DNA of 64,000 nucleotides, from assembly GCA_963600315.1 (NCBI GenBank), contig CAVCAW010000029.1, positions 7,919 through 71,918 on the forward strand, given 5' to 3'. Each line of letters opens with the position of its first letter. The first letter of the stretch is position 1. The position numbers were made by a program, and so were the translations under genes. Source of the stretch: Bacteroidaceae bacterium (GTDB lineage: Bacteria; Bacteroidota; Bacteroidia; Bacteroidales; Bacteroidaceae). Positions 4,113-41,482 of the stretch are shown in pieces. A model generated the notes under the pieces. The model was not told where the DNA came from, ran no database searches, and saw nothing but the letters and a program-made list of their open reading frames with translations.

Positions 4113-4226
4113 CTAAGTCCGCACCGTATTGCACCACCCACAGCCACAAAAAATCTTTCAGCGTCAGCCCAGCGTGATGCCACATGGCGGTTGCAACATC
4201 TGCCGTGCTTTAAACGCACAGCAACC

Positions 4227-4345
4227 TTTCCGCCGAAATTTTTGTTGTCGTCGTTTGGGAATTTCCGCGGAAATTGAATTGCGTTTCGGGGGAAATTGAT
4301 ATCCGTTTCAGCCGAAATTTTCATCAATTTCCGCGGAAACGCAAT
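4227..4345. repeat. Phased 22-bp repeat array, copy 1 (cores TTTCSGSSGAAA)
   Basis: Cores TTTCCGCGGAAA (4262), TTTCGGGGGAAA (4284), TTTCAGCCGAAA (4306) and TTTCCGCGGAAA (4328) start exactly 22 nt apart. An extra core TTTCCGCCGAAA sits at 4227, 35 nt upstream. Related arrays occur at 40521-40608 and 52761-52849. Confidence 0.9.
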
Positions 4346-4400
4346 TTTCAAATGGGCATTACATTGTTGAATGATGAAGATTTTTCTTGACCATGAGTTG

Positions 4401-5556: not shown

Positions 5557-5602
5557 CAGCTCGTTTCAGGAAGTATACATAAATATTGAGATTTTGAATA
5601 AC

Positions 5603-16577: not shown

Positions 16578-19500
16578 ATGCACCGCAAGACATTCTGTTT
16601 GCTGATACTGATGGCACTGCTCTGCCACATAGGAGCAGCTGCCGACGAGATACGCTACGTAGCGAAGTACGGCTCGTATGCCAACGACGGCAAGACATGG
16701 AAAACAGCCAAGAACAACATACAAGACGCCATCAACGACCTCGTGGACAATGGTCTGACGGGCGAAGTGTGGGTGGCAGCCGGCACCTACACCCCTACGG
16801 AGAGTACGGAGTCGACGGGCGGTAGTACGCTCTATATGTCGTTTAAAATCCCAGCGGGCATCAGCGTCTACGGGGGTTTCAAAGGCGGCGAAAATGGAGA
16901 GAAGACGAAGGACGAACGCGAGGTTCTTACACCCAAGTCTACAGGCAAGTTCTACAAAAACTACACTATTCTCTCTGGCGACCTCTCGTCGGCAGCCAAG
17001 TTTGAATGGAACTACACCAAAGACCAGTGGAACACCTCATTCTACGGCAACTGCTACCACGTCGTGACCTTCGCCACTAACGGCTTCGATGCCACTACCG
17101 GCCGTGCCAACCCCAACGGCGGCGGTTACCGGTCGGCACTGCTCGAGGGCTGCATCATTGAACACGGCAACGCCACCAATACCGAAATAACAGGTCGTCC
17201 GCACAATGCCTACGGCGGCGGTGTCTACATGGTGGACGGTGCACATCTGAAGCAGTGCGTGGTGCGTGAGTGCGTAGCATCGCGCGACGGCGGCGGTATT
17301 TATATGGACGGTGGCGGCTACATAGAGCGTTGCTTCGTCACTGACTGCCAAGCATTGGGCATCGGCACAAACTACGGCTATGGCGGTGGTGTGTGCATGG
17401 ACGGTCCCGATAGCTACAAGAACGTACCGATGATTCAGCGTCAGTCGGGCATCTCGGGTTGCGTGGGCCGCATGGGTGGCGGTCTTGCCATCAAAGCCAA
17501 CGACACCAACGGCAACAACAAATACAAAATAGCCTGCACCGCCATGATCATAGCCAACAACACAGCCACGACCGAGGCAGGCGGTGTCTATATGCTCAAG
17601 GGTGGCGCCATCACCCAGACGACCATCGTCAATAACAAGTGTAATGGTGCCGGCGTGAGCATCAACGGAATGGCCACAGGCCGCTCAGCGGGAGTATACT
17701 GCCGCGACAACGGTATACTCGCCAACTCCGTGCTGTGGGGTGGCAAGTGTGATGCCAACAACGACATTCAGTATGCCACCTCCCACTCGGGCAACAGCCA
17801 AGATTTGCGCCCCTACGTCATGTATACGGCGCTGACCAAGAGCGACTACACCGACTGGTCGGGCGTAATCAAGAACCACGCCTTCAAGGTGTCAGACTAC
17901 AACACCCGTAAGGATGCCGAACAAGCAGGAGCCGTCATCAGCAGTTCGGAGAGTTTTCCCATGTTCTACCACCCGACACCCAAAGCTGGCTACATACACG
18001 AAAATCAACAGCACCAGTTCTTCATGAATCTGATTGATGGCATGACTGCTACCGACGAAAACGGTAATGCCATCACCGACCGTGAAGCTTACGACTTCCA
18101 GCCGACATCACGCTCTGGTATCGCCCACAAGGGTGTGGCCGTTATCGACATCGACCGCGACAGGCAGACTCCTGCCATGGAGGTAGACTGGGATATAGTC
18201 GGCACACAGTTCAACTCGCGACCTACGCTAGGAGGCTATACCACCTCTTCCATTGCGATAAGGCCTGAGGTAGACGACGCCAACAAGAAAGTCAACTTCT
18301 ACATAGACCCCAATGACAAGTCGGGTACGGAATACGACGACATCGGCAGCAGTTGGGACCAGCCGGTGCGTTTTCTCAACGACGCTCTAAGCTTTATCAG
18401 AGACGACCAAGCTCTCGACACACCCGTATATTGCAAGAGCGGCTATGCAATCAACGTCTACGTGAAAGAGGGTACGGTGGACAACACCAACTCGCGAACC
18501 ACCACCCGCGTGCGCAAAACGGGATTCGTCATGCCAAGCAATACCACCCTACTCGGCGGCTATCCGAGCGGCAACACAGGCACCGACCTCACGGGCCGCA
18601 ACAACAACGCACACCCTACTACCATCACGGGTAACGTGCAGGACGACTACGACCTCAACGTGATTCACCTGCTGCGCTTCAACGAGGGAACAGAGAACAC
18701 TACCATCGACGGCGTATACATACGCTACGCCAACGCCCGCAGCCAGATAGGTCGCGACGACAGCGGATACACCAAGGGTGGAGCCATCGCTATATATAAC
18801 AGCAAAAACATCAAGATTAGCAACTGCTTGATGGTGGGCAACACCGCCTCGGCAGGCTCAGCCGCATTTATCTACAAGTCGACCGGCATACAATTTGAGA
18901 ACTGCATTATCCGCAACAACGAAAGCCGCGAGGTAGACGCTGACGGCAACTTCACGTCAAACACCGGCAACGTAGTGGTGGGTCAGGAGAGTGAGGTCTC
19001 ATTCAACCACTGCGACTTCATACGCAACGTAGGTTTCGCCATCGACAGCTACGGCAAGACCAAGGTGACCAACTCTGTGTTCTACGGCAACATGAACCAA
19101 CCTGTGGAGGACACGCGCAACAACGAGAGCAGAGCCCTCTACGCCGTGCGCCTGCTGGACAACGGCACCTACTCGGGCGACCACAACCTCTATGACAAGA
19201 AGTCTGCCACCGCTGACTTCATGACCAAGCTGAGCGCCGACGAGCAGAAGACCAACGAGGCAATACTCACCTACGAATACAGCGAGACGTCGAACACCTA
19301 CCCACGCTTCCTCAACCCTACGAAGAACGCAGGTGTCAACACCAACGGCGACGCTACCTACTACGGTCGCACCGTGTCATACATGCCACACAACAACAAT
19401 CCCATGGTCAACCGCGCATCGAAAATCGATGACGAGGGCAACGCTAACGACGACCACAGCAAATGGGGCAACGACATGATTGGCATCAGCCGCGACTTCG

Positions 19501-22500
19501 GCGGACTGCCCGACATCGGTTCGCTTGAAAACCACGAAGCACTCGATAGCGATGCTGCGGACAAATCATATTCAGACGGTCAGAAAGCCTACGGAACGGT
19601 GATGTACGTGCGCGACTACAACACATACAACGCCGACGGAACAGTGGCAACTACTGACAACAGCACCACCCATGCTGACGGAACCCAGCGCGACGGAGCA
19701 TCGTGGGAGAATGCCATCAATGGTAATGCGGCATATAGCTTTACTTATACATACTCGAAGACTACCGCTCCGGTCACTATCACGCCCCACACTCCCACAG
19801 TGAGCACAAGCATCACAGCAGAAGACGCTACGGTCTACAAGATAGGTATGTTGTCTAACAATTCCGCAGGCAACACCGTCTACTACGCTACTCAAAACGG
19901 CAATTACCTTAAGAGCATCTCAGACGCTATCACAGGTGACGACTTCATCCTGCTCTCTGCAAGCGGAGGCTATTATTACATCTACAACAAAACAGCGAAG
20001 AAGTATGTCACTTACACTGAAGTCCTGAGAGGCGAGAACAAAGTTGTATTGTCTGACGCCAACACTTCAAACGCTACTTGGCGCCTATACCCTGTCAATA
20101 CTTCCGACAATTACCATACATACTGCATTCAGCCAAGCTCGACGGACAACAGCGAAAGTTCCTTGGCTTGGAATTATTACGGAGGAACAGGAAACAACAT
20201 TGGATTTTATAATGGTACAGATAATAATGGCAAATGGCAGTTCATCACTGCGACAGCAGGAAGCCCCACAACCACCACAACCCAAGAAACAAAAAACATC
20301 AACGGTCTGCAGTATGCGGTGAGCACCGTTGAGAGCGAGATGGCAAAGAACTACACTCAACGCATCACGCATGAGTTAGAAAAATCCGTTAGCGGAACCT
20401 ATACCACAACACATACCTATCAGGATTTGCCCGCAGACTACACGCAGCGCGAAGTGTGGGTAGGCGCCGGCATCTACACCAACACGAGCGGCTATGAGGT
20501 GCGCAACCACGTAAAGGTCTACGGAGCCTTCCCCAAGACTGGCACCCCAGGCAAGAACGAACGCCACCCACAGCTCACCACGGATATCGCCCTGTCTACA
20601 GCAAATCAAGGACTGACGGTGTCTGACTATGAGACCATACTCCAGACAAATTCAACCAAAGGGGCTACTACTTATAATCTGAGTGTGCTCAGCCAACCGT
20701 TAGAGTGTCGCGTCACTACCGACCATAACACCAACGTACCTGCCGACCGCGTCATTTATGAAGGGGCAGAATGGGATGGCTTCACCATCCGTTATGGTTA
20801 CAAGACTGGTATATCATCAAGCGGAAGTGGCGGTGGTCGCGATGGAGGAGCTGGTTTGAGGCTCTATGAGAATGTGACCGTGTCCAACTGTGTCATCCGT
20901 GACAACGTGTTGAAGGATGGTGTCAAGGGACGTGGTGCAGGAGTCTATGTAGATGGTTCCACTATCATCAACTGCTACATCATGGACAACGCAGGTTCTG
21001 GAAGTGAAATTTACGGAGGCGGAATGTACATGATAAAGGGTACCATCTACAACTCCGTGATTGTAGGAAACTCTCTCTCTGGTTCTACTATCCACGGTGC
21101 GGGTGCTTTCTTCGAGTCTGCCGACTTCTTCAACAACACAATGGTAAACAATACAGGTTGTGGTTCCATTGAGGTGTGGACTGCTTCTGCAGCCGAAGCC
21201 CACCTTACCCTTTACAACTCCATCATCATAGCTGGCGACAACAAGCTCGTTGACCGAAGCAACTCTACTAAGATTACATTCAAGAACTGTTTCCTTCAGA
21301 GTACCAATACAGCAAACGATGCAAAAAACAATACCGATTACTTAGTGGACGAAACAAACAAATGGTATTGTGGTGGTACTGCTTTTTCCGCTGCTACCTG
21401 CAACCCGTTCGCCAAGACATATACCGACGCCGTTAAGGACTATGACTTCCGCATTGAACAGAAAGACAACTACAATGCAGTGAACGCCGGTACAGAGTTC
21501 ATTGACCTTGATAATGACGGCAGCAGCGATATCACAATCCCGAGCTTCGACATGGACTACACCGACCGCGTGCAGGACTGCGAGATAGACATGGGTGCCT
21601 ATGAGTACAACGGAGCCTACAGTATCCAGCCCGACCTTTCGAGCGTGGACGGTCAGGCTATCTTCTACGTAACGCCAGATGGTCGCGGCAATGCCTCTGC
21701 CACCAACCCCGACAACGCTGCCTGCGCCAGCAAGTTGCAGAAAGTGCTTGACGCTGCCGGGCGCTACAAGTTCACTACACCTAACAAACGTGTCATCGTC
21801 AAGGTGGCTAATAGCAAGACTCTCGCCGACGACGGCGACGAGACCACCTACTTCAAGTACTACGCCTGCCGCACCACCGATGTCAACAACGACGACGTGC
21901 GCATCTGGTCAATCATCGTGCCACGCGGCGTAGAGGTATGGGGCGGCTACACCGACGAGTGGACTTCGTCAAGCGAAAATGGTTTCTACTCTAAGGACAG
22001 CAACGACACCGTCACCGACAAACGCGACATCACGGGCAACCCCACCTATTTCCACTCCTACTACTACAACTCGAGCGAGAAAACCAATGCCAACACCTAC
22101 CACGTGGTGACCTTCACCGACAAGGTGTTTGACGGCGATGGTAATGCCTACTCCACTGCCGACTATGACGCCAGCACCAATACGCTGAGCCACAATAGCA
22201 CCTATGCTGAGGGCGGCACATACCTTGAGGTCAACAGCAAGACCAACGACCGTGCTGTCATCGACGGCATCTTCATCACCGGTGGCCAGGCAGATGCAAA
22301 CACTGCCAGCTCGGAGGTCAACATCAACCAATATGGCGGTGCAGCCATCGTGACCGACTATGCCCACGTGCGCAACTGCATCGTCCGCAACAACGAAGCG
22401 ACCTACGGCGGCGCACTCGCACTGACCCACGGCGCACTAGTGTCGGGCTGCCTCATCGACCAGAACACTGCCGACTACGGCGGCGCTATCTACGTGTTTG

Positions 22501-25500
22501 AGAACGGCACCATTCTCTCCGACGGTACCACCATCAACTCGAAGGCGGGCACCGGCGAGGCTATGGACAAAAACATGGCACACGTCTACACCTCTACCAT
22601 CGTTAACAACCTCGCCAACGAGCAAGGCGGCGGTATCTTCTTCGGACAAGACGACGATAACATCAACGTGCGCGTCAACTCGTCGGTAATATGGCAGAAC
22701 AACAGTACCAATATGGCTAACGTGTCGGGACTCTACAACCCAACGCGAACCAACGAGACCATCAGTACACTGGAATTCTTCCCGTTCTCCTACTGCGGGG
22801 TGCAGAACCTGCGCATGTCGGGTGCCAACAACCTCTCGCTGGGCAACCTCAACAAGTCGGGAGCACGCTTTGCCGGCAGCAAAAACGCAGCCGGCAACAA
22901 CTCCACGCTGGCTGTAGAGACGGCAGACGAGGACTTCACCAGGTTCTCCGACTTCGGCTACTATGCTCTGACCGACTACTCCATACTCGTAAGGACGGGT
23001 ATGCCATCAACCGAATACACCAACTTGGTAAACAACTTGGGACTGTCGCAGTCAGACTTCACCGCAGTAGACCGACTAGTGTCGACCAACAAAAACCGCT
23101 CCTACATAGAGATGGGAGCACGCGCTCTGGACAAAATCATCAGCAACGGACAGCTCATGCTGCGCCTCTTCGTAGCCCAGCCTACCGACATCAACATAGA
23201 CGCTGCCGAGACAATGATGAACATGAAAACCACTGCCACCGCCGGCAGTCTGGAAGAATACTACAGCCAAGAAGGCTCGTCATTTGCCTACCCGATGCAG
23301 AGCCTGCAGGACGCCCTCGACTATATCATAGAAAAGCGTTCGGAATTCAACGACACCAAGACAGGACTCTTGGAGGAAGGTGCCAACAACCTACCCTTCG
23401 AGATATGCATGGGTCGCGGCACCTTCTACCCCACCCGCAATACCTATGGTATATACGGCAATTCGCCTGCCAACACCTTCGCCATTCCTGAGGGCGTGAG
23501 CATCTACGGCGGCTTCGCCGTGGGCAATCCAAACAAAGACTACTCCTTCTTCGGTCGCTACAACAAGAAGGGGTCTGACATATCGAGCATCACCGACAAC
23601 ACCAAGCCAGGCACCATAGCGGGCAATGTGGTGACAGTGATAGAGAACGATGCCGACACAACGGTCACCCTCATGAAAAACTACGAGATTGAGCAAATGC
23701 CAATCGACAAGATGCTATCGAGCCGCCGCTCCAACGACAACAATGGCAACAACATCATTGAGCCGTGGGAATTCCAGCACCAGACTGTTCTCTCGGGCGA
23801 TGCCGAGGGTCAGACATACTCAGGTGTATACCACGTAGTAACTGTTGTGGCAGACCAAAACGTGGTGGGCATGCTGCCTAAGCAGCTCAACTCCCACGAG
23901 AAGGCAAACACCACTTACCACACCATGTCGTATGACGACTATATCAAGAAGTTCGGCATTGGCTCTTTCGACTATGAGGAAGGTCAGTACGTCCTCCTTG
24001 ACGGTCTCCAGATTACTGGTGGTACAGCCTGCAACTTCATAGAAGGTTCTACTGGTTTTAACAGCAAGTATGACTTCTACTGCGGAGGCGGACTGCTCGT
24101 CGACGGCAACCGCTACTGCAACGACTTCAACAACTGGGACGGCACAACGTACGACGGCACCAACTCCAAGGGCGAGACGTGGGGCAACGTCGTTGACAAG
24201 CACAATGCCCAGATAGGCACAGCGGGCTACCGCGACATTCCATTGAACATCGTCAACTGCAAATTCTCCGACAATGAGGGAGGTCTGGGCGCTGCCATCT
24301 ACTCCAACGGCACGATGGACATCTATAAGTCATCGTTTGAACACAACAAAGCCCATAGCGGCGAAGAGACACTGAAAGATGCCAACAACATCGACAGACA
24401 GGTACAGTATCCTGGCAATGGCGGTGCCATCGTCTGCACCCACCAGTTGGGAGCCTACAACACCATCTTCGCCAACAACGAGGCTTACAGCGACAACACC
24501 AGTCTCGAACCTCATCTCTTTGAGAACATCGACAACGAAGGCAAGAACAAGATGCACTCCGGCAGCGGTGGTGCCATCTATATGGGTCCGTTTGGATTCT
24601 TCCACCTCGTCAACTGCAACATAGTGCGCAACCAAGCCAACATGTACCCCGCCGTCTTCACCCTCAACCCCAACCCCGACCTCACTAACGGTCGCCACGG
24701 CGGAGTGGGCCTGAGCAACACGCTGCGCCCGTCATCCGTTTACTACAACCAGTTCCTCAACACCGTGATTTGGGGCAACGACATCAGCAAGGCCAGTGCC
24801 AAAGCCAACGATGGCAATGAGCTCTTCAAGTTCAATGCCCGCATGATATGCAACTACTGGCTAGGCAGCCACGCTCCCGAAGACTCTCGCTATACCTCGC
24901 CGTCGTTCACCGATGCCGACAACATGCCTACCAACCAGGCTGACCTCGACGCTGACAACGACAAGGAGCAGAGCAAGTATGGCGAAGTGGCATGGTTCAG
25001 TGCCTATGAAGAAGGTCGCGGCATCACTCCGCTTAACGATGCCGACCTGCGCAACAACCAATACTCGCCCTTCACCTATGCACGCGACCTCGTCCACACT
25101 GCCGGACAGTCGCAGACACCAGCCATCGACACCTACCAGAACTGCAACATTCTGCTGTCGGCAACTAACTTCGACCTCGAAGGACCTAACTTCGTCAACC
25201 CAGCAGCTGACCCAGGCTACGACGGCTATGACGAGTCGTCAGACTGGAGCCCCGCCCGCCTCTCCAACCTCACCGACAACGGTAGCGGACAGGTAGCTCA
25301 GACCGTAGAACTCGTCAACGAGGAGTATATCGCCAAGTTCGACACCTATAGCGACTATGCCTCGCTGCCCAACCGCTCCGTATACTACGGTGGCGGTAAC
25401 CCCTATGGCTACACCTCAGAGAAGCCCGGTGACCTCAAGATTGAGGGAGCCTACACCGTCACCCGCATGCTCTACGGCTACGAAAACAACAAAACTTATA

Positions 25501-28500
25501 TGCCGGCAGGCAACATGGACTATATGACCTCTGCCGCCACCGGTCAGAAGCTCTACCGCATCTCCAAAGACCCCAACCCGACACACGACCAGACCTATAT
25601 CGACATAGGAGTGTATGAATATGCCCACACCGAGCTGCAATACACCACCAACGGCGACGAGGTCGACATCCTCTGGGTATCGCCCACCGAGAAGCCCGAC
25701 AACGGACTGCCCGACGGCAGCGCATGGAGCCAGCCTACGTCAGACCTCCAGCGAGCCATCGAGACGCTGCTCGCCAGCCGCAACGGCCACCGCAAGGAGA
25801 TACGCCTCATGAACGGAACCTTCACACCTATCTATAACATCGAAGACCACCTGGCGTTCTATATCGACACCAAGACCCTCAACAAGTCGGTCACCATGAC
25901 CGTCAAGAGCCGCGACGACAAAGGCAACGTCACAGCGTGGAACACTGGCTACGGAGTGAAGTCGCTCACCATCAAGGGCGGCTACAGCGAACAGATAGAA
26001 AACGTCTACGACCCCGAATCCTACCCCGCTATCATTCGCCAGCAATCGCGCACCAACGCCAGCTCCGACCGATGGGATCACCTCTTCTACATAGCCGACG
26101 CCACACAGCGCTACGGATACTACAACAACGGCGCCGAAGCCTATACCGATGCCAACGGCTATGGTAGCTATCAGGAGAAAGACGGTAGCTATGACCACAC
26201 CGTCAACACCATACCTATTCACCTCGACGGCGTGACCATCGTCAATAATCAGGCGCGCTCAGGACAGAACGGAGCGGCCATCTACTACGAAGACCGCACT
26301 GAGACCGAGGAGGTGACACCTACCACCGCCAACATGTCGGTCAACACCTACTTTACCGATGCCGACAAGACCATCGCCTCGACCAACAACGAACCTACTA
26401 ACTACTACAACCGCACCGTCGACAAATACTACACCGACGCTACCTACAGCACCGAGTCAGCGACACCGACAGCATACGCTACCTATAAGTATGGGGAGAC
26501 GAGTGCCAACAAGATTATCATCAGCAAGAGCAAGGTGATGAACAGTGGCTCCTACGAGAGCAACGACAACACCACCAGCGCCGTCTACATAGGCAAGAAC
26601 GGTGGCAACGCACTGCTCTACAACGACGTGATGCACAGCAACCTGGGCAACCCGCTCGTGTCGGCAGTGCCCACCATCATCGTCAACAACACCTATGCGC
26701 TCAACAACGGTCGCGTGGACCTCAACGGCGACAACACCGTGACATCATACCTCGACATCAACCAAGGTAGCGACGGAAGCGACTACGACGCCGAGGGCGG
26801 CGAGATGCTCTCGCCAAGCTACAGGGCTGCGGGCACCAAGTCTGCCACCATCACGGGGTCGGCAATCTACAACTCCGTCTTCTGGCGCAACAACTACAAC
26901 GGCACGCAGTTCACGCTGCCGGGCTATGTCAGCCCCGACAAGTCGGGCGACATCTTCTCGCACAATGCCGTCACGGGCATCCCCACTGCTCTGTACAACA
27001 CCAGCGCCACCAACTACAACGTGGGACTATCCGACACCAACAGCGACATCATCTACGGCCCTAACTTCACAGACCCCAAGGTCGATGCCACCACTACAGC
27101 ACTTGTCGAGGCACGCGACTTCACTATCCAGCCGTCGCAGCGACTGCTCAACACCGGATCCGACGACCTCTACAACGACAAAGTGGGAGACAGCGAGCAG
27201 AACATCATCGACCTGGCATGGAACACCACCACACGCATTGATGCCAGCGGACAAACCCGCTTCCGCTTCACCATAGACCGCGGAGCCTATGAGTATCAGA
27301 ACAACCTCAACCGCATCATCTATGTCAACCCCAACGACATGGTTACGGGTCTGGGCAACTCATGGTCTTCGCCTATAGGCTATGGTCAGCTGCAGACAGC
27401 CATCGACCTGGCTGCCGTATATCATGCCACATGGCCTACTGAAGAGGCCTACGTCTTGGTTAAGGGCTCCAACACCACCAACAGCGACCTCCACACAGGC
27501 GAGACCATCACCATGCGCGACGGCGTAAGTATCTATGGCAGCATTCTTCCTTCAATGTCCAAGGATTGCTCGTATAGGTTAGACGAATCAACCGGTGAAT
27601 ATCTCTATCCCAACGACGTTGTCAACAGCTATATCAATCTGATTCGGGCAGAACGTAACGGAATAGCCGCTCTCAATGCCAACAAGACCAGAGTGAGCGG
27701 CATTAAGCTGGAAGCAGGCGCTTCCTTAGACACTGACACTACCGGTTACATAGCGTCGCTCGTAGATGGATTCGACGTAACAGCCACAACCGACGACAAT
27801 ACTACTGGCACAGTCACTGCCCCCGTCATCGACGTGCAGCCAAAGACCGGCACAGCTGTGCTACGTAACATCATCGTACACGACAACGACCTCTCGGCCA
27901 CCGAGGGTGTCAACCTCGCCAATGTGGACAATGCCCTCATCTACGAGGCACTGTTCCGCGACAACAAGGTTGCCACAACCGGCTACAATCTTGCTCTCGG
28001 CTCGACCGGCTATGGCGTAAACCTCACCGTGGAGGGCAAGACCCGTGGTGCTGACGGAACCGTCACCTACAATGGCAAGGGCGATGCTGACCACCTCTAC
28101 TATTCCATCGTGAACTATGCCGGACAACCTGCCACGGAGAACACACTCTCGGGACATAACTACAAGTTGGCAAACCACGACCTTAACTATCAACTTACGG
28201 AGAATTCAACTCACATCGATGAGTTTGACAAGAAGAACCCGCTGACGGGTGTGGCAAAAAACTTGGCAAATTATATCCATTACAGTTCATACACAGACGA
28301 GGATTGGAATACCATACTCCTCGACCGCGACCTCCTCGGCACCCACCGCTTGCTGAACAACGTGACCAGCGAAAATAAGATTGACCGTGGTGCGTTCGAG
28401 ACTTGGCGAGTAGAGAATGATTTCACGTGCACAAGCACATACACCTGCTACGTCTCAGAGTATTCTCTTCAGCAAGATGTTTTTTCCGGTGAATGGACAT

Positions 28501-29807
28501 GGTGGGCAGACCAAGTACCCATTAAGATCAACAATCCGAAGTTCCCACAACCAGGCTCGGTTGTCTACATCATGCAGGGCAAGCGTCTCGAGATGCCGAT
28601 TCCGTCAAGTTCAGTCAGCTACCCCACACCTTTCACCCCGGGCTATCTGCTCCTGCAAGACGGTGCATCGCTCTATAGCAACGGCAATCAGGTGAGTGTA
28701 GCTTACGTGGGTGTGGAGCGCAGCGTGCGCACTGACGGCTCCTTAGTCAGTCTGCCCTACCCGATGCAGTATCTCGGCACTGACGCCGCCACCAACGGCG
28801 TGGGCACTCCGTCATATTCTTCTGACGGCGTGCTGGTCCTCACAAGAAACACCAACCTCGCGTCCTACAACTATAATGGAGTAGGTCGCTCGGCATGGAA
28901 CTCCGCATTCAGCGTCAGCAACTCACCCTACTGGACTGCCCAAGCTTCAGACGAGACTACACCAGCCAACCAGGGTGTACTGGTGGTAGGTGCTGTCCTC
29001 AGCGATGCGACCACCCAGGGAACGACAGTCCGCTTCACTGCCCAAGGTGATCCCGACGACATGACCGACTATCTCTACACAGAAGCCTCAGGCGAGACTT
29101 ACAAGACCGTCACTCTGACACAGTACGACGACCGCACGTCTACCGACGGTGCAGCCGACTTCACCGAGAAGGAAGACATGGGTTGGAACTGCATCGGTCT
29201 GCCCTATCTGGTTAGCGACTACAACACAGCAGCCACGGAGACCCTGACCGGCGACAGCCACTACAACATGGATATTCCTCACACCCTGTGGCTCTGGTAT
29301 GACGGCAAGACTCGTCCCGACGGCACCACCCTCGATGGCGACGGCGGCTTCTACAGCGTTAGCTCATGGGACAACAGCGACTGGCACCTCGCCTCGGGCG
29401 AAAAGGCACGCATCTGGGTCGGCGAAGGCATCTTCACGCAGACAGCAGCCGTGGCAGACACCGAGGAACTCACCTTCTACCGCCCGAAATACACCGCCAG
29501 CTCTAACCCGTCACCGCAGTATGAAGGCAACGGCGACCTCACTGAAGCCACCGTCCTCAACGCACGCCACTATGCTGGCACTGCCGACGACAACGACATG
29601 CGTCAGGACTTCACCATACGCACCGACGGACGCACACTCCACATCGACGGACTCTCGGGTGGCGAAACCATCACTCTCTACGATGCGGCAGGCCGCATCT
29701 ACAGCAGAGCCACTGCCTCGGCAGGTCGCTTCACCACCGCTGTCCACGCCCCTGGAGTCTATATCATCAGAGTGGGCAACAGCTCCAAGAAAGTCACAAT
29801 AAAATAA
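16578..29807 (+). CDS. Giant (4409 aa) secreted multi-beta-helix adhesin-like protein with T9SS C-terminal sorting domain
   Basis: Single 13.2-kb ORF with signal peptide MHRKTFCLLILMALLCHIGAAA. It contains about seven modules. Each opens with an (I/F)YV..P.G...G.SW..P...LQ.AI-like segment and closes with a D-x-G-A-Y-E-like motif (IDMGAYEY ~21585, IDIGVYEY ~25598, IDRGAYEY ~27274, IDRGAFE ~28378). Many GGAIY/GGGIF...N turns are typical of right-handed parallel beta-helix (Pmp-like) repeats. The C-terminus ...ETITLYDAAGRIYSRATASAGRFTTAVHAPGVYIIRVGNSSKKVTIK is T9SS CTD-like. Confidence 0.85.
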   Translation: MHRKTFCLLILMALLCHIGAAADEIRYVAKYGSYANDGKTWKTAKNNIQDAINDLVDNGLTGEVWVAAGTYTPTESTESTGGSTLYMSFKIPAGISVYGGFKGGENGEKTKDEREVLTPKSTGKFYKNYTILSGDLSSAAKFEWNYTKDQWNTSFYGNCYHVVTFATNGFDATTGRANPNGGGYRSALLEGCIIEHGNATNTEITGRPHNAYGGGVYMVDGAHLKQCVVRECVASRDGGGIYMDGGGYIERCFVTDCQALGIGTNYGYGGGVCMDGPDSYKNVPMIQRQSGISGCVGRMGGGLAIKANDTNGNNKYKIACTAMIIANNTATTEAGGVYMLKGGAITQTTIVNNKCNGAGVSINGMATGRSAGVYCRDNGILANSVLWGGKCDANNDIQYATSHSGNSQDLRPYVMYTALTKSDYTDWSGVIKNHAFKVSDYNTRKDAEQAGAVISSSESFPMFYHPTPKAGYIHENQQHQFFMNLIDGMTATDENGNAITDREAYDFQPTSRSGIAHKGVAVIDIDRDRQTPAMEVDWDIVGTQFNSRPTLGGYTTSSIAIRPEVDDANKKVNFYIDPNDKSGTEYDDIGSSWDQPVRFLNDALSFIRDDQALDTPVYCKSGYAINVYVKEGTVDNTNSRTTTRVRKTGFVMPSNTTLLGGYPSGNTGTDLTGRNNNAHPTTITGNVQDDYDLNVIHLLRFNEGTENTTIDGVYIRYANARSQIGRDDSGYTKGGAIAIYNSKNIKISNCLMVGNTASAGSAAFIYKSTGIQFENCIIRNNESREVDADGNFTSNTGNVVVGQESEVSFNHCDFIRNVGFAIDSYGKTKVTNSVFYGNMNQPVEDTRNNESRALYAVRLLDNGTYSGDHNLYDKKSATADFMTKLSADEQKTNEAILTYEYSETSNTYPRFLNPTKNAGVNTNGDATYYGRTVSYMPHNNNPMVNRASKIDDEGNANDDHSKWGNDMIGISRDFGGLPDIGSLENHEALDSDAADKSYSDGQKAYGTVMYVRDYNTYNADGTVATTDNSTTHADGTQRDGASWENAINGNAAYSFTYTYSKTTAPVTITPHTPTVSTSITAEDATVYKIGMLSNNSAGNTVYYATQNGNYLKSISDAITGDDFILLSASGGYYYIYNKTAKKYVTYTEVLRGENKVVLSDANTSNATWRLYPVNTSDNYHTYCIQPSSTDNSESSLAWNYYGGTGNNIGFYNGTDNNGKWQFITATAGSPTTTTTQETKNINGLQYAVSTVESEMAKNYTQRITHELEKSVSGTYTTTHTYQDLPADYTQREVWVGAGIYTNTSGYEVRNHVKVYGAFPKTGTPGKNERHPQLTTDIALSTANQGLTVSDYETILQTNSTKGATTYNLSVLSQPLECRVTTDHNTNVPADRVIYEGAEWDGFTIRYGYKTGISSSGSGGGRDGGAGLRLYENVTVSNCVIRDNVLKDGVKGRGAGVYVDGSTIINCYIMDNAGSGSEIYGGGMYMIKGTIYNSVIVGNSLSGSTIHGAGAFFESADFFNNTMVNNTGCGSIEVWTASAAEAHLTLYNSIIIAGDNKLVDRSNSTKITFKNCFLQSTNTANDAKNNTDYLVDETNKWYCGGTAFSAATCNPFAKTYTDAVKDYDFRIEQKDNYNAVNAGTEFIDLDNDGSSDITIPSFDMDYTDRVQDCEIDMGAYEYNGAYSIQPDLSSVDGQAIFYVTPDGRGNASATNPDNAACASKLQKVLDAAGRYKFTTPNKRVIVKVANSKTLADDGDETTYFKYYACRTTDVNNDDVRIWSIIVPRGVEVWGGYTDEWTSSSENGFYSKDSNDTVTDKRDITGNPTYFHSYYYNSSEKTNANTYHVVTFTDKVFDGDGNAYSTADYDASTNTLSHNSTYAEGGTYLEVNSKTNDRAVIDGIFITGGQADANTASSEVNINQYGGAAIVTDYAHVRNCIVRNNEATYGGALALTHGALVSGCLIDQNTADYGGAIYVFENGTILSDGTTINSKAGTGEAMDKNMAHVYTSTIVNNLANEQGGGIFFGQDDDNINVRVNSSVIWQNNSTNMANVSGLYNPTRTNETISTLEFFPFSYCGVQNLRMSGANNLSLGNLNKSGARFAGSKNAAGNNSTLAVETADEDFTRFSDFGYYALTDYSILVRTGMPSTEYTNLVNNLGLSQSDFTAVDRLVSTNKNRSYIEMGARALDKIISNGQLMLRLFVAQPTDINIDAAETMMNMKTTATAGSLEEYYSQEGSSFAYPMQSLQDALDYIIEKRSEFNDTKTGLLEEGANNLPFEICMGRGTFYPTRNTYGIYGNSPANTFAIPEGVSIYGGFAVGNPNKDYSFFGRYNKKGSDISSITDNTKPGTIAGNVVTVIENDADTTVTLMKNYEIEQMPIDKMLSSRRSNDNNGNNIIEPWEFQHQTVLSGDAEGQTYSGVYHVVTVVADQNVVGMLPKQLNSHEKANTTYHTMSYDDYIKKFGIGSFDYEEGQYVLLDGLQITGGTACNFIEGSTGFNSKYDFYCGGGLLVDGNRYCNDFNNWDGTTYDGTNSKGETWGNVVDKHNAQIGTAGYRDIPLNIVNCKFSDNEGGLGAAIYSNGTMDIYKSSFEHNKAHSGEETLKDANNIDRQVQYPGNGGAIVCTHQLGAYNTIFANNEAYSDNTSLEPHLFENIDNEGKNKMHSGSGGAIYMGPFGFFHLVNCNIVRNQANMYPAVFTLNPNPDLTNGRHGGVGLSNTLRPSSVYYNQFLNTVIWGNDISKASAKANDGNELFKFNARMICNYWLGSHAPEDSRYTSPSFTDADNMPTNQADLDADNDKEQSKYGEVAWFSAYEEGRGITPLNDADLRNNQYSPFTYARDLVHTAGQSQTPAIDTYQNCNILLSATNFDLEGPNFVNPAADPGYDGYDESSDWSPARLSNLTDNGSGQVAQTVELVNEEYIAKFDTYSDYASLPNRSVYYGGGNPYGYTSEKPGDLKIEGAYTVTRMLYGYENNKTYMPAGNMDYMTSAATGQKLYRISKDPNPTHDQTYIDIGVYEYAHTELQYTTNGDEVDILWVSPTEKPDNGLPDGSAWSQPTSDLQRAIETLLASRNGHRKEIRLMNGTFTPIYNIEDHLAFYIDTKTLNKSVTMTVKSRDDKGNVTAWNTGYGVKSLTIKGGYSEQIENVYDPESYPAIIRQQSRTNASSDRWDHLFYIADATQRYGYYNNGAEAYTDANGYGSYQEKDGSYDHTVNTIPIHLDGVTIVNNQARSGQNGAAIYYEDRTETEEVTPTTANMSVNTYFTDADKTIASTNNEPTNYYNRTVDKYYTDATYSTESATPTAYATYKYGETSANKIIISKSKVMNSGSYESNDNTTSAVYIGKNGGNALLYNDVMHSNLGNPLVSAVPTIIVNNTYALNNGRVDLNGDNTVTSYLDINQGSDGSDYDAEGGEMLSPSYRAAGTKSATITGSAIYNSVFWRNNYNGTQFTLPGYVSPDKSGDIFSHNAVTGIPTALYNTSATNYNVGLSDTNSDIIYGPNFTDPKVDATTTALVEARDFTIQPSQRLLNTGSDDLYNDKVGDSEQNIIDLAWNTTTRIDASGQTRFRFTIDRGAYEYQNNLNRIIYVNPNDMVTGLGNSWSSPIGYGQLQTAIDLAAVYHATWPTEEAYVLVKGSNTTNSDLHTGETITMRDGVSIYGSILPSMSKDCSYRLDESTGEYLYPNDVVNSYINLIRAERNGIAALNANKTRVSGIKLEAGASLDTDTTGYIASLVDGFDVTATTDDNTTGTVTAPVIDVQPKTGTAVLRNIIVHDNDLSATEGVNLANVDNALIYEALFRDNKVATTGYNLALGSTGYGVNLTVEGKTRGADGTVTYNGKGDADHLYYSIVNYAGQPATENTLSGHNYKLANHDLNYQLTENSTHIDEFDKKNPLTGVAKNLANYIHYSSYTDEDWNTILLDRDLLGTHRLLNNVTSENKIDRGAFETWRVENDFTCTSTYTCYVSEYSLQQDVFSGEWTWWADQVPIKINNPKFPQPGSVVYIMQGKRLEMPIPSSSVSYPTPFTPGYLLLQDGASLYSNGNQVSVAYVGVERSVRTDGSLVSLPYPMQYLGTDAATNGVGTPSYSSDGVLVLTRNTNLASYNYNGVGRSAWNSAFSVSNSPYWTAQASDETTPANQGVLVVGAVLSDATTQGTTVRFTAQGDPDDMTDYLYTEASGETYKTVTLTQYDDRTSTDGAADFTEKEDMGWNCIGLPYLVSDYNTAATETLTGDSHYNMDIPHTLWLWYDGKTRPDGTTLDGDGGFYSVSSWDNSDWHLASGEKARIWVGEGIFTQTAAVADTEELTFYRPKYTASSNPSPQYEGNGDLTEATVLNARHYAGTADDNDMRQDFTIRTDGRTLHIDGLSGGETITLYDAAGRIYSRATASAGRFTTAVHAPGVYIIRVGNSSKKVTIK

Positions 29808-29819
29808 GCACGGACTATT

Positions 29820-32800
29820 ATGAAATACAGCATCAACAAGATACTCGTCCTCCTCTGTCTGCTCACGGCGGGATTCACCAATGCCGCAGCTGAAGACTAT
29901 CTCTATGTCATCACTGACAACAACGGAAACTTCCTTGCCAACAACAGCGGCACACTCAGCAACTCCACATCTTTCAACCCCAAGACCTGCGTGTGGACTT
30001 GCTCGGGGAATGGTAGCGGAACATTGGCAAACCAGGGAAAATATCTGTATGCAAGCCTTTCTGCATTTAGCTCTTATTCGCTGTCAATAAATTCAAATTC
30101 CACAGAGTGGACGATATCTGGCAATAAAGTATATACTGGTTATCTTAATTCTTATTATATACAATTCAGTAACAACAGTTGGTCGACAAACAAATCCACG
30201 ACCAATGCAGCCTCTTGCTACAGCGCAACCAAGGTCTCCACTGAAGCTGTAAAAAACTTGTCTGTCGAAGGCGACAAGAAGCAGGAGCTCAAGCACGTAG
30301 GTGACCGCCGCAGCTACAATGCCAAGATGTCGTATACCCCAGCCTACAACACCTGGACATTCAACGGCACTTCCTACTACTCATCCACCGACGACTCCTA
30401 CGTAAGCACCAACGCTCCCGAAGCCATCACCAACAAGGCTAACTACAAGTGGAGCAGTTCAGCATCGTCCAACGTCAAAATGACCACCGATGACACCGAC
30501 GACAGTAAAGCCACAGCCAGCTATGACAGCCGAATCACCACGCAAGACGAAAGCGACCAAGGTGAAGTGTCACTCATGGTCACGGCTACCATTCCCGCCA
30601 GCAGTAGCAGCTTCTTGACCAGCGACATCATCGAGACGGCATCTGTCACCGAGACCTTGCTCACACGCAGCGTAGCCACCATCACTGCCAACGTTGACAA
30701 AAGCACCATCAGCATTGACGAAACAGCCAAAATCACCGCCACCGCATCGTCGGGCGGCACCATAAGCTATTCGTCAAGCAATACCGACATAGCCACCGTC
30801 AGCACCGACGGCACCGTCACCGCCGTCAGCACTGGTGGAGCGGAGACTGCCACTGTCACCATCACCCTGACTACACCGCAGACCGACGACTACGAAGCTG
30901 CTAGCTCCACCGTCGACATCACGGTGACCCGGCGGCCCAACCCTGTGGCTGCCGCTGCCGACAAGACAGAACTCTACGTTGGCGAGACAGCCAAAATTAC
31001 CGTCAGCCAAAACACATCGGGCGGCACCATCAGCTATTTGTCAGAAAACGAAGCTCTCGCCACCGTGGGCAGCGACGGAACCATCACCGCAGTCAGCACC
31101 GGCGGCGTGTCATCAGCCTCAGTGGCTATAAAGGTGACTTCGGCACAGTCTGGCGACTATCAAGTCGGCACCTCCTACGTCATCGTTTCAATCAAGAAGC
31201 GTCCCACCACGCTGAGCCTCGCCTACGACAAGTCGACCACCACCTACGGCAACCAAGCCCCCGTTCTGACGCAGTGCAAACTGACCGATGCCACCACCGG
31301 CAGCGAAATCTCCGGCAACGTGTCGTTCACTTCGTCCAGCCAGTGCATCACCCTCAACAATGCCATGGGTGAACTCACCGTCCACAAGGCGGGCACCGCA
31401 GTCATCACCGCCACCTTCACCGGCAACGACACCTACGATGCCGCAACAGCCAAATTCACAATAACCGTCAACAAGGCACCCACACTACTCACTTTTCCGC
31501 AAAGTGACTACGTGGCACAGCTGAGCCACACCTTCACGTCGCCCACCGCTACACTCATGCCAGCAGAGGCAGGCAACGTGACCTATAGCTTCACCAGCGA
31601 CACCGACGGACTGATAACCATCAACTCCACCACCGGCGAGGTACAGACCAACACCCTCACCGGCACAGCCACCGTCACCGCCACCTTTGCAGGCAACGAC
31701 TGCTACGAGGCAGCTACTGCGTCCTACACACTGCTCGTGTCGACAAAGGCCATGCCTACGCTGTCTGCCTCCGTCAAACCCCTCTTCTATGTTGACGAGA
31801 CAAACCAAGCCACTGCCTCCACCAACAGCACCAATGGCTGCAAGTTTGAGAGCACCGACACCGACGTCATCACAGTAGACGCCGATGGCACCATCACTGC
31901 CGTAGGCGAAGGCTATGCAGCTGTCAGGGTAACATCACTCGAAGACGACACCTATGTGGAGTATTACGAAGACTACCCTATCAACGTCTTCCGCTACCCC
32001 ACCCAACTCACTTTTTCTTATCCGCAAACCATCTATTTCACCGACCACGAGGGAGAAATCAGTCCGTCGCTATCACTCATCGAGACGGCTACAAACACCA
32101 CGGTAGACTTCGGCTCGCTGATGTCCTTCAATACCTCAGATGCCAACGTAGTCACCGTCGATGCCCTCACAGGTCACGTGACCATCAAGGGCAGCGGCAT
32201 CGCTGTCGTTACAGCCACCTACGGAGGTAATCGCAAATATCAATCCACGTCAAGCACTTTCATAATGATGATTAACTACGCCTCTAAGCCAGGTTCATTC
32301 ATCTATCTCAAAGACGCATCGGGCAACTACCTCTCTGCCGACGGCACCACAGTGAGCACCACCGCCACCCAAGACGCATCAGCCTTGATATGGTACGGCA
32401 CAGACCGCTCACTGCTCTTCTACCAGTGCGGTCGCTACCTTGGCTCAGCCGCACCGACGCTCGCCCCTGTCGTAGCTATGGGCGAGAGCGGCACCAGCTT
32501 CACCTACACCCACACCGACGACAAGACTATCATCAGCGACGGCACGCAAAACCTCTCCATGAACGGCAACGACACCTGGACCGTCGAACAAGCCCTAAGT
32601 CTCCCCCTCACATTCAAGAGCGTAGGCCACGGCTACTCCACCCTCTACAGTCCCTGTGCACTGCAATGTCCTGCCGGCGTGACAGCCTTCTACCCCACCA
32701 GCCGCACTGCCGACGACACTGGAGCTGCCGACTACGTGATTACACTCCAGTCCTTGTTGGCGGGAGTTATTCCCAAGAACACCCCCGTGGTGCTCTACAC

Positions 32801-41417: not shown

Positions 41418-41425
41418 TACTTTTG
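41418..41425 (+). promoter_or_regulatory. Candidate -7 promoter box (TACTTTTG) for the peptidase gene
   Basis: Exact TAnnTTTG. It overlaps the TTG start proposed by the ORF track (41423), so a downstream ATG is more likely. Confidence 0.4.
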
Positions 41426-41482
41426 CGTGTCTGCATGTCGGACAACAAAAAGAAAAGAGACCCACTAAAGAACCTAACGGCT

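What the first reader, a model, noticed from the sequence alone, without database searches (positions are those of the whole stretch)
16578..29807. 4409-aa protein built from about seven divergent tandem beta-helix modules
Module starts and ends can be read from recurring motifs. Opening segments:
- IRYVAKYGSYANDGKTWKTAKNNIQDAINDL (~16640)
- KVNFYIDPNDKSG...SSWDQPVRFLNDAL (~18288)
- GTVMYVRDYN...GASWENAING (~19592)
- QAIFYVTPDGRGNAS (~21654)
- LRLFVAQPTD...MQSLQDALDYI (~23158)
- VDILWVSPTEKPDNGLPDGSAWSQPTSDLQRAIETL (~25660)
- RIIYVNPNDMVTGLGNSWSSPIGYGQLQTAIDLA (~27311)

Closing motifs: PDIGSLE (~19507), IDMGAYEY (~21585), IEMGARA (~23105), IDIGVYEY (~25598), IDRGAYEY (~27274), IDRGAFE (~28378).

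Between them are GGAIY/GGGIF-type turns typical of right-handed beta-helices. The modules are divergent at the DNA level, with no long identical repeats seen, so this looks like an old, maintained concatenation rather than a recent amplification. A ~390-aa non-helix region precedes the CTD. The size and seven-fold modularity are unusual for an operon-encoded pilus-associated protein.
Basis: partly seen in the sequence, partly recalled or inferred. Interest (0 to 1): 0.65.

Follow-up and report, generated by a model that had tools for sequence, protein, structure and literature searches.

The report
Giant seven-module beta-helix surface protein
This is a real 4409-residue secreted protein of a Prevotella-like gut bacterium, built from seven ancient beta-helix modules. 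It belongs to an undescribed but widespread family that always sits at the end of a pilus gene cluster, so it is probably a giant adhesin that works with that pilus.

Summary
ORF 16578..29807 (+) is intact and encodes 4409 aa: a signal peptide, seven tandem right-handed beta-helix modules, a distinct ~415-aa C-region, and a T9SS type-A sorting domain.

- **Modules.** A profile built only from outside homologues of module 1 finds all seven modules in order. Module 1 models confidently as a pectin-lyase-fold beta-helix.
- **Not an artefact.** The gene has no DNA repeat longer than 32 nt. Colinear orthologues occur in many independent assemblies.
- **Family.** An exhaustive search with the C-region finds 164 clusters, 86 of them giants (median 4281 aa). 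These share the same seven positionally orthologous modules, so the concatenation predates the family.
- **Context.** The gene always follows a small lipoprotein gene. That gene sits in a conserved DUF3575 / DUF5119 / Mfa-like fimbrillin operon, which puts the giant in the position of P. gingivalis Mfa5.

Best reading (partly inferred): a T9SS-exported giant adhesin fibre that works with a type V pilus. It is a new variant of known kinds, and the function is untested.

The parts
5594..7078 (+). First gene of the cluster: DUF3575 protein (predicted outer-membrane protein).
   Evidence: Pfam DUF3575 at E 1.9e-10. The gene is conserved at the head of the cluster in L006, L007, L021 and L023.
7075..8238 (+). 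DUF5119-like lipoprotein.
   Evidence: Pfam DUF5119 scores 24.7 bits, just under the cut-off of 27. Its counterpart in L021 passes at 27.8 bits.
8349..10196 (+). Mfa-like fimbrillin paralogue 1 (615-aa lipoprotein).
   Evidence: Member of family A3. A3 is homologous to a protein that passes Pfam Mfa_like_1 (hhalign 99.8%).
10288..11955 (+). Mfa-like fimbrillin paralogue 2 (555 aa).
12134..14161 (+). Mfa-like fimbrillin paralogue 3 (675 aa).
14171..15379 (+). Mfa-like fimbrillin paralogue 4 (402 aa, short form).
   Evidence: BLASTP E 5e-24 to L021:8606-9856. That protein scores 30.1 bits against the Mfa_like_1 cut-off of 27.
15447..16505 (+). 352-aa lipoprotein of an unnamed family. Its gene lies immediately upstream of the giant gene in all 13 relatives whose upstream flank could be read.
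   Evidence: Synteny in L001-L003, L005-L008, L010-L012 and L021-L023. A weak homologue sits upstream of the minimal version in L018. The lipobox Cys, R59 and the GDPG motif are conserved. There is no Pfam or PDB match.
16578..16640 (+). Sec signal peptide of the giant protein (aa 1-21).
   Evidence: Read from the sequence: MHRKTFCLLILMALLCHIGAA.
16641..18287 (+). Module 1 (aa 22-570): right-handed parallel beta-helix.
   Evidence: AF2 pLDDT 86.7, pTM 0.90. Foldseek matches are to beta-helix proteins. Homologues are named beta-helix or choice-of-anchor Q proteins.
18288..19589 (+). Module 2 (aa 571-1004).
   Evidence: HMM hits at i-E 9e-20 and 3e-10. hhalign to M1 gives 97.5%.
19590..21653 (+). 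Module 3 (aa 1005-1692). Its N-terminal cap is split by a variable inserted domain (aa ~1049-1281, nt 19722-20420).
   Evidence: HMM hits cover the cap (aa 1033-1048) and the body (aa 1282-1679, i-E 1.5e-20). The insert is absent in L002, L005 and L006 and in ~36 of 87 family members. choice_anch_Q matches aa 1647-1678.
21654..23156 (+). Module 4 (aa 1693-2193).
   Evidence: HMM i-E 2.4e-30. BLASTP to M1 at E 8e-11. POMP_repeat scores 23.8 against a cut-off of 15.
23157..25658 (+). Module 5 (aa 2194-3027): the longest module, with inserted loops.
   Evidence: Five colinear HMM pieces. hhalign to M1 gives 97.6%. Chlam_PMP scores 24.5 against a cut-off of 20.6.
25659..27311 (+). Module 6 (aa 3028-3578).
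   Evidence: HMM hits on the cap (3e-5) and the C-terminal part (2.4e-8). hhalign gives 85-88% to M1 and M3.
27312..28400 (+). Module 7 (aa 3579-3941): short and degenerate.
   Evidence: HMM hit on the cap at 6e-5. hhalign gives 95.8% to M2 and 90% to M4. AF2 pLDDT is 80-93 for aa 3579-3830. Fold search did not recover it as a beta-helix.
28401..29645 (+). C-region (aa 3942-4356): a conserved block unrelated to the modules that defines the family.
   Evidence: hhalign gives below 2% against all modules. The exhaustive search finds 164 representatives at E <= 0.001. 50 columns are at least 85% identical across 87 proteins. The fold is undetermined.
29646..29807 (+). T9SS type-A C-terminal sorting domain (aa 4357-4409) plus the stop codon.
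   Evidence: TIGR04183 scores 25.4 and 26.6 bits against a cut-off of 23. The model matches the RgpB, RemA and RemZ CTD structures.
29820..33224 (+). Downstream 1134-aa secreted Big_2 protein, 12 nt after the giant gene.
   Evidence: Pfam Big_2. A Big_2 protein of 1163 aa follows the giant-gene remnant in L020. The tail reads like a short CTD but was not verified.

Best explanation
**Shown.**
- The gene is intact.
- It encodes a Sec signal peptide, seven tandem Pmp / choice-of-anchor-Q-type right-handed beta-helix modules joined by 5-20-aa linkers, a conserved ~415-aa C-region of unknown fold, and a type-A T9SS sorting domain.
- It belongs to an unnamed family of at least 86 divergent clusters of 3000-5600-aa proteins. 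These have the same seven positionally orthologous modules.
- The gene sits at the end of a conserved cluster: DUF3575, DUF5119-like, Mfa-like fimbrillins, a small lipoprotein, then the giant gene.

**Inferred mechanism.**
1. The protein crosses the inner membrane through Sec.
2. The T9SS recognises its C-terminal domain and exports it across the outer membrane. The domain is then cleaved off by the PorU sortase.
3. On the cell surface it forms an elongated, roughly 40-50-nm multi-beta-helix fibre that acts as an adhesin.
4. It works together with the type V (Mfa-like) pilus encoded upstream, as the T9SS-dependent accessory protein Mfa5 does in P. gingivalis.
5. The always-adjacent 352-aa lipoprotein is the likely adaptor between the two.

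The seven modules have each kept their own sequence signature since before the family radiated. This suggests that each has its own ligand or structural role, rather than serving as an interchangeable spacer.
For: **Real gene.** The ORF is intact. It has no repeat longer than 32 nt. Colinear orthologues at 39-69% identity occur in independent assemblies.

**Beta-helix modules.**. Pmp and choice-of-anchor Q signatures are above their cut-offs.

**T9SS cargo.** TIGR04183 is above its cut-off. The CTD model matches RgpB, RemA and RemZ CTD structures. CTD motifs B, D and E, as described for Prevotella in PMC11969387, can be read in ITLYDAAGR / PGVYII / KKVTIK.

**Family and fixed architecture.**

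**Pilus context.**
- DUF3575 and DUF5119 lie at the head of the cluster.
- The upstream paralogues are homologous to a protein that passes Mfa_like_1.
- The g15447-like gene is directly upstream of the giant gene in all 13 relatives whose upstream flank is held: L001-L003, L005-L008, L010-L012 and L021-L023.

**Precedent.** Mfa5 is a T9SS-dependent accessory protein of a type V fimbria, encoded last in its operon (PMC8512630, PMC7835359). T9SS cargo with 1-3 pectin-lyase-fold domains is common in P. intermedia (PMC11969387).

**Structural rather than catalytic.** Residues conserved across the family are mostly Gly, Asn, Ala and aromatic.
Against: - There is no experimental evidence for secretion, surface display, adhesion or any physical link to a pilus.
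- No similarity to the solved N-terminal half of Mfa5 was found.
- The g15447 lipoprotein has no recognisable pilin signature.
- T9SS machinery genes are not in the window, so a working T9SS in this organism is assumed.
- The minimal 751-aa relative in L018 is not in a fimbrial cluster.
- The fold of the C-region is unknown.
Confidence: 0.5

Rival explanations
1. A free-standing T9SS-anchored surface adhesin or coat fibre. It would be attached to the outer membrane through the usual LPS-type glycan anchor. It would be co-transcribed with the pilus genes without being part of the pilus.
For: - The type-A CTD is the signal used for glycan-anchored cargo in Prevotella (PMC11969387).
- The minimal relative in L018 lies outside any fimbrial cluster.
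- Some relatives (L008, L010-L012) lack matches to this window's fimbrillin and DUF genes upstream, apart from the g15447-like gene.
- Giant T9SS adhesins that stand alone are known, for example SprB (from my own knowledge, not checked here).
Against: - The g15447-like gene is strictly adjacent in every locus examined.
- The full DUF3575 / DUF5119 / fimbrillin cluster recurs in distant relatives.
Confidence: 0.3
2. A secreted multi-catalytic carbohydrate-active enzyme. Each beta-helix module would be a lyase, hydrolase or esterase for a different plant or host glycan.
For: - The best Foldseek E-values are to GH136 lacto-N-biosidases, pectate lyase Pel9A, pectin methylesterases and other glycan-active beta-helix enzymes.
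- Each module has kept its own sequence signature, which would fit distinct specificities.
- The host lineage is a gut polysaccharide degrader, and the window contains GH97 and NPCBM genes.
Against: - No module matches any enzyme family in Pfam or NCBIfam.
- TM-scores to enzymes are low (0.21-0.36 on the query). The best TM-score is to Rhombotarget A (0.50/0.63), for which my paper search found no function described.
- Conserved positions are mostly Gly and Asn.
- The neighbours are pilus genes. No SusC/SusD family was detected among the flanking genes scanned.
Confidence: 0.12
3. An assembly artefact, or a decaying pseudogene read through by chance.
For: The contig comes from an assembly that cannot be inspected at read level. 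Some relatives are fragmented (L009, L019, L020).
Against: - The frame stays open for 13.2 kb.
- There are no repeats that could mislead an assembler.
- Dozens of independent assemblies hold colinear full-length relatives.
Confidence: 0.01

Closest known systems
Mfa5 of Porphyromonas gingivalis (T9SS-dependent accessory/tip protein of the Mfa1 type V fimbria)
   Same: - It is a large protein encoded at the distal end of an Mfa-type fimbrial operon.
- It has an N-terminal signal peptide and a T9SS C-terminal domain.
- It is the only non-pilin-fold component of the cluster (PMC8512630, PMC7835359).
   Different: - Mfa5 is 1228 aa and is built from a vWA domain and IgG-like domains.
- This protein is 4409 aa and is built from seven beta-helices plus an unrelated C-region.
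- No sequence match to the solved part of Mfa5 was found.
Pectin-lyase-fold T9SS cargo proteins of Prevotella intermedia (1-3 beta-helix domains)
   Same: Same genus-level lineage, same secretion signal and same domain fold (PMC11969387).
   Different: This protein has seven modules in a fixed, family-wide order, an added family-defining C-region, and a conserved fimbrial-operon context.
Chlamydial polymorphic membrane proteins (Pmp) and choice-of-anchor Q domain proteins
   Same: It has GGA(I/L/V)-type and FxxN-type repeat turns and the D-x-G-A-[YF]-E closing motif. The Pfam and NCBIfam repeat models score above their cut-offs.
   Different: Pmps are type V autotransporters with a C-terminal beta-barrel (from my own knowledge). 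Here the C-terminus is a T9SS sorting domain, and the beta-helix unit is repeated seven times.
SprB and RemA/RemZ of Flavobacterium johnsoniae (large T9SS-exported surface adhesins)
   Same: They are very large T9SS cargo proteins displayed on the cell surface. The tails of some family members are homologous to the last ~300 aa of RemA and RemZ (E 4e-16 and 6e-15).
   Different: - Most of that match lies in a pre-CTD domain that the window protein lacks.
- SprB uses a type-B CTD and a different repeat type, and it serves gliding motility (from my own knowledge).
- No gliding context is seen here.

Membership tests
T9SS type-A CTD cargo | C-terminal sorting domain that matches TIGR04183 above the curated cut-off. 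| tested here: met
   25.4 bits for the whole protein and 26.6 bits for the piece, against a cut-off of 23.
T9SS type-A CTD cargo | The CTD folds as the small beta-sandwich seen in RgpB and RemA CTD structures. | tested here: met
   Foldseek matches 7pq4, 5ag8, 8gl8_D, 8gl6_D and 5hfs at probability 1.00, with target TM 0.38-0.71 (0.60-0.71 for four of them). pLDDT is only 53-81 in this part.
T9SS type-A CTD cargo | N-terminal Sec signal peptide. | tested here: met
   Read from the sequence: a basic N-terminus, a hydrophobic core and an AAA site within aa 1-23. No predictor was run.
T9SS type-A CTD cargo | A T9SS machinery is present in the same genome, and export depends on it. | not testable with these tools
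   No T9SS component gene was recognised among the large ORFs of the 64-kb window that were scanned. The rest of the genome was not available.
Right-handed parallel beta-helix (pectin-lyase fold) | Three-stranded coiled beta-helix in module 1. | tested here: met
   AF2 pLDDT 86.7, pTM 0.90. All 21 Foldseek hits at E <= 0.001 are beta-helix proteins.
Right-handed parallel beta-helix (pectin-lyase fold) | The same fold in modules 2-6. | tested here: met
   Shown by homology only: HMM hits and hhalign probabilities of 85-99%. No structures were predicted for these modules.
Right-handed parallel beta-helix (pectin-lyase fold) | The same fold in module 7. | tested here: inconclusive
   hhalign gives 95.8% to M2 and 90% to M4. 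The AF2 strand pattern is confident. Fold search gave no beta-helix hit below E 0.04.
Choice-of-anchor Q domain (NF041518) | Match above the curated cut-off. | tested here: met
   31.9 bits against a cut-off of 25. Only the closing part of the model is matched (positions 28-58 of 58, aa 1647-1678). Weaker matches lie at the ends of M3 and M6.
Chlamydial Pmp autotransporters | Pmp/POMP repeats. | tested here: met
   TIGR01376 scores 23.8 against 15 in M4. Pfam Chlam_PMP scores 24.5 against 20.6 in M5.
Chlamydial Pmp autotransporters | C-terminal autotransporter beta-barrel. | tested here: not met
   No autotransporter domain was found. The C-terminus is a T9SS CTD.
Mfa5-type pilus accessory protein | Encoded at the distal end of an Mfa-type fimbrial operon and carrying a T9SS CTD. 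| tested here: met
Mfa5-type pilus accessory protein | vWA domain with a MIDAS site, plus IgG-like domains. | tested here: not met
   No vWA hit in Pfam or NCBIfam. None of the PDB sequence searches returned an Mfa5 entry.
Mfa5-type pilus accessory protein | Homology to the conserved C-terminal half of Mfa5. | not testable with these tools
   Only Mfa5 residues 99-664 are in the PDB (PMC7835359).
Mfa5-type pilus accessory protein | Physical incorporation into the fimbria. | not testable with these tools
   This needs an experiment.
Type V (Mfa/FimA) pilus operon (the context) | Genes encoding fimbrillin-superfamily lipoproteins. | tested here: met
   The window paralogues have no direct Pfam hit. 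They are homologous to L021:8606-9856, which passes Mfa_like_1 at 30.1 against 27 (BLASTP 5e-24; hhalign 99.8%).
Carbohydrate-active beta-helix enzymes (PL, GH28, CE8, GH136) | Sequence membership of an enzyme family, with conserved catalytic residues. | tested here: not met
   No enzyme-family hit in Pfam or NCBIfam. Similarity is at the fold level only, with low TM. Catalytic residues were not assessed on structures.

The most novel reading that the evidence does not exclude
Gut and rumen Prevotellaceae carry a conserved class of type V pili whose distal component is a ~450-kDa fibre delivered by the T9SS. It would dock through the always-adjacent small lipoprotein and the family-specific C-region. 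Its seven non-interchangeable beta-helix modules would each bind, or cut, a different glycan. This would be a pilus-borne multi-tool, and a second and much larger example of cooperation between the T9SS and type V pili beyond Mfa5.
Probability: 0.2. Interest if true: 0.75.

Novelty: new variant of a known kind. Interest (0 to 1): 0.5.

Why it matters
Type V pili and the T9SS are the two signature surface-assembly systems of Bacteroidota. The only described link between them is Mfa5 of P. gingivalis, and how it is incorporated into the fimbria is still unknown.

This locus shows a large unnamed family: 164 clusters at 50% identity, 86 of them proteins of 3000-5600 aa. Members occupy the Mfa5 position in conserved fimbrial operons of gut Prevotellaceae and related Bacteroidales. 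These bacteria are abundant in gut microbiomes.

If the protein is displayed on or with the pilus, it is likely to be a major determinant of adhesion to food particles, mucus or other microbes. The conserved gene pair (small lipoprotein plus giant cargo) would then offer a workable handle on how T9SS cargo is handed to a pilus.

The fixed seven-module order is also a clean case of an ancient multi-domain concatenation kept without homogenisation.

Tried and rejected
- **Whole-protein searches.** The homologue search with the whole protein timed out. The whole-protein Pfam scan gave nothing, and only piecewise scans gave weak repeat hits.
- **PDB sequence searches that found nothing useful.** These covered:
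  - the module-1 profile;
  - the C-region;
  - the M3 insert;
  - the fimbrillin-like paralogues;
  - the g15447 family;
  - the DUF5119-like protein.
- **Family scans of the upstream genes.** Pfam and NCBIfam scans of the window's upstream lipoproteins were negative. The pilin link came only through a distant relative.
- **C-region structure.** The AF2 model of M7 + C-region + CTD, built from 13 sequences, left the C-region at pLDDT below 50. Its fold is therefore undetermined, and the fold-search hits there are meaningless.
- **C-region versus the downstream protein.** I tested whether the C-region resembles the downstream Big_2 protein. It does not.
- **The M3 insert.** I suspected a beta-trefoil lectin from QxW-like motifs. 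No tool supported or refuted this, so it stays a guess.
- **Literature.** Searches for this family, for choice-of-anchor Q, and for giant Prevotella T9SS proteins found no description. Rhombotarget A, the best structural neighbour by TM-score, had no function described in the papers the search returned.
- **Assembly artefact.** Rejected.
Full report
**1. The observation.** The window has one uninterrupted ORF at 16578..29807 on the + strand, 4409 codons long.
Openings are at aa 25, 571, 1005, 1693, 2194, 3028 and 3579. Closings of the D-x-G-A-[YF]-E type are at aa 977, 1670, 2177, 3008, 3566 and 3935.
- The gene has no tandem repeat and no direct repeat longer than 32 nt. The repetition is visible only at protein level, and nothing in the DNA would mislead an assembler.

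**2. Are there really seven related modules?** Plain self-BLAST sees only part of it. M1-M4 is the best pair, at 27% identity and E 8e-11.
- I built an HMM from homologues of module 1 found in public data, leaving the window sequence out. It hits all seven proposed modules, colinearly and in order.
- I also made per-module profiles from orthologues in other genomes and compared them all against all.
  - M1-M5 are linked at 93-99% probability, apart from one weak pair (M3-M5, 10%).
  - M6 links to M1 and M3 at 85-88%.
  - M7 links to M2 and M4 at 90-96%.
  - The ~415-aa C-region, an internal negative control of similar composition, scores below 2% against every module.
- Module 3 has its N-terminal cap split by a ~230-aa insert. 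Module 5 is lengthened by loops. Module 7 is short and degenerate.

**3. What the modules are.**
- Homologues of module 1 are named 'right-handed parallel beta-helix repeat-containing protein', 'choice-of-anchor Q domain-containing protein' or 'outer membrane repeat protein'. They carry Pfam Beta_helix, Chlam_PMP and Por_Secre_tail.
- An AlphaFold2 model of module 1 built from 56 sequences is confident (pLDDT 86.7, pTM 0.90).
- All 21 of its Foldseek matches at E <= 0.001 in the PDB are right-handed parallel beta-helix proteins. They include GH136 lacto-N-biosidases, Pel9A, pectin methylesterases, tailspikes, AlgE4 and Rhombotarget A. Rhombotarget A gives the best TM-scores, 0.50 on the query and 0.63 on the target.
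- Curated models confirm the repeat type:
  - choice_anch_Q scores 31.9 bits against a cut-off of 25;
  - POMP_repeat scores 23.8 against 15;
  - Chlam_PMP scores 24.5 against 20.6.
- No module matches an enzyme family. The positions conserved across the family are mostly Gly, Asn, Ala and aromatic, which are structural residues of beta-helix turns.

**4. The two ends.**
- The N-terminus reads as a Sec signal peptide.
- The last 53 aa match the T9SS type-A sorting domain above its cut-off.
- In a model of M7 + C-region + CTD, this tail matches the solved CTDs of RgpB, RemA and RemZ.
- CTD motifs B, D and E, as described for Prevotella (PMC11969387), can be read directly in the tail.
- The C-region (aa ~3942-4356) is strongly conserved but modelled at pLDDT below 50, so its fold is unknown.
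- A profile of the C-region plus the tails of family fragments matches the last ~300 aa of F. johnsoniae RemA and RemZ (E 4e-16 and 6e-15). Most of that score comes from an extra pre-CTD domain that the window protein lacks.

**5. It is one member of a large, fixed-architecture family.**
- A genome scan found colinear relatives at 39-69% identity in Prevotella and Bacteroidaceae metagenome bins. Their ORFs stay open for more than 3800 aa until the fetched DNA ends.
- An exhaustive HMMER search with the C-region against 1.84 billion representatives found 164 proteins at E <= 0.001. Of these, 86 are 3000-5642 aa long, with a median of 4281.
- In a joint alignment, each of the seven modules and the C-region is present in at least 81 of 87 proteins.
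- In ten of the most distant members, the best match of every window module detected is its positional counterpart, at 21-44% identity and E down to 1e-106. In one N-terminally shortened member (P0218), M2 found no match and M1 matched out of order.
- The sevenfold duplication is therefore older than the family, and the modules have not been homogenised since.
- The only name found for any member is the generic 'right-handed parallel beta-helix repeat-containing protein' (MBQ8099350.1). I found no paper that describes the family.
- Short relatives of about 750 aa exist that consist of signal peptide + M7-like module + C-region + CTD (P0094, P0095).

**6. Genomic context.** Upstream lie seven genes on the same strand:
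- a DUF3575 gene;
- a DUF5119-like gene;
- four paralogous lipoprotein genes;
- a 352-aa lipoprotein gene.

The four paralogues have no direct Pfam hit. Their counterpart in a distant relative (L021:8606-9856) passes Pfam Mfa_like_1 at 30.1 bits against a cut-off of 27. That protein is homologous to g14171 (BLASTP E 5e-24) and to the whole paralogue family (hhalign 99.8%). The paralogues are therefore Mfa-like fimbrillins.

The 352-aa lipoprotein gene lies directly upstream of the giant gene in all 13 relatives whose upstream flank could be read. A weak homologue precedes the minimal version. Its family has an almost invariant lipobox Cys, an Arg about 34 residues later, and a GDPG motif. It has no Pfam or PDB match.

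The complete cluster recurs in distant relatives: DUF3575, DUF5119, fimbrillins, the small lipoprotein, then the giant gene. A 1134-aa Big_2 protein follows 12 nt downstream. A similar gene follows the giant-gene remnant in L020.

**7. How it most likely works.**
- *Shown:* a T9SS-type cargo protein made of seven beta-helix modules, encoded in the Mfa5 position of a conserved Mfa-type pilus operon.
- *Inferred:* Sec export, T9SS export and CTD removal. The protein is then displayed as an elongated fibre that acts as an adhesin in concert with the co-encoded pilus, with the adjacent lipoprotein as a candidate adaptor. I estimate a fibre length of 40-50 nm from about 4.8 Å per rung and about 12-14 rungs per module.
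- *Precedent:* Mfa5 is the T9SS-dependent accessory protein of the Mfa1 fimbria (PMC8512630, PMC7835359).
- *Not a family member:* this protein has no vWA or IgG-like domains and no detectable similarity to the solved part of Mfa5.
- *Rivals:*
  - a free-standing glycan-anchored surface adhesin that is merely co-transcribed (0.3);
  - a multi-catalytic carbohydrate-active enzyme, supported only by fold-level similarity (0.12);
  - an artefact (0.01).

**8. Verdict.** The protein is not a one-off. It is a typical member of an undescribed, widespread family with a fixed seven-module plan. I rate it a new variant of known kinds (T9SS beta-helix cargo; Mfa5-like pilus partners). It is of moderate interest because it offers a testable second link between the T9SS and type V pili in abundant gut bacteria. 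The function remains untested.

Noticed in passing
window 19722-20420 (aa ~1049-1281 of the giant protein): A ~230-aa domain is inserted into the N-terminal cap of module 3. It is present in about 25 and absent in about 36 of 87 family members, always at this same site. Three-fold internal motifs (…TWRLYP…, …KWQF…) suggest a beta-trefoil lectin, but no tool confirmed this.
   Followed up: partly
window 23736-23771 (aa 2387-2398, module 5): The loop DNNGNNIIEPWE fits an EF-hand/dockerin-like calcium-binding pattern (positions 1, 3, 5, 8 and 12). D2387, N2389, N2391, E2395, P2396, W2397 and E2398 are at least 85% conserved across 87 family members.
   Followed up: no
window 29820-33224: A 1134-aa secreted protein with Big_2 domains starts 12 nt after the giant gene. 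Its tail (…IYNINGTALG…AGIYIRNGKKILKR) reads like the 'short' Prevotella T9SS CTD of PMC11969387, but TIGR04183 misses it. A similar gene follows the giant-gene remnant in L020.
   Followed up: partly
L018 10001-12256 (P0094); also P0095: Minimal family members of about 750 aa consist of signal peptide + one M7-like module + C-region + CTD. In L018 the gene is preceded by a 644-aa lipoprotein weakly similar to g15447 (E 7e-6), and the pair lies among housekeeping genes rather than in a fimbrial cluster.
   Followed up: partly
window 15447-16505 and alignment A5: The always-adjacent lipoprotein family has an almost invariant lipobox Cys, an Arg about 34 residues downstream, and an invariant GDPG motif. 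The Arg is placed as the Arg-Ala maturation site of type V pilins, as I recall it. The fimbrillin paralogues have a similar T-R-A site in their consensus.
   Followed up: partly
L019 (contig SAHD_10001283): Here only a 760-aa C-terminal remnant of a giant gene is left. It lies directly next to an integrase, an HTH gene and a type I restriction-modification system. A mobile element has probably cut the gene.
   Followed up: no
L002-L006 (record titles): Contigs with this clearly Bacteroidales-type locus are filed under bins named Bifidobacteriaceae, Lachnospiraceae, Clostridium sp. CAG:302 and Oscillospiraceae. These are probably binning or labelling errors in those metagenome bins.
   Followed up: no
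family members such as P0155, P0157, P0160, P0163 (C-terminal ~200 aa): A subset of the family has an extra domain of about 110 aa between the C-region and the CTD. It is homologous to the region before the CTD of F. johnsoniae RemA and RemZ. The window protein lacks it.
   Followed up: partly
window 41423-45511: Another large secreted-type protein (1362 aa) has Laminin_G_3 and PKD domains and a weak papain-family (Peptidase_C1) match. It may be a further surface or T9SS cargo protein.
   Followed up: no
window ~6000-32000: The + strand shows a sustained positive AT skew (0.15-0.30) and a negative GC skew across the whole fimbrial/giant gene block. All its genes are on that strand.
   Followed up: no
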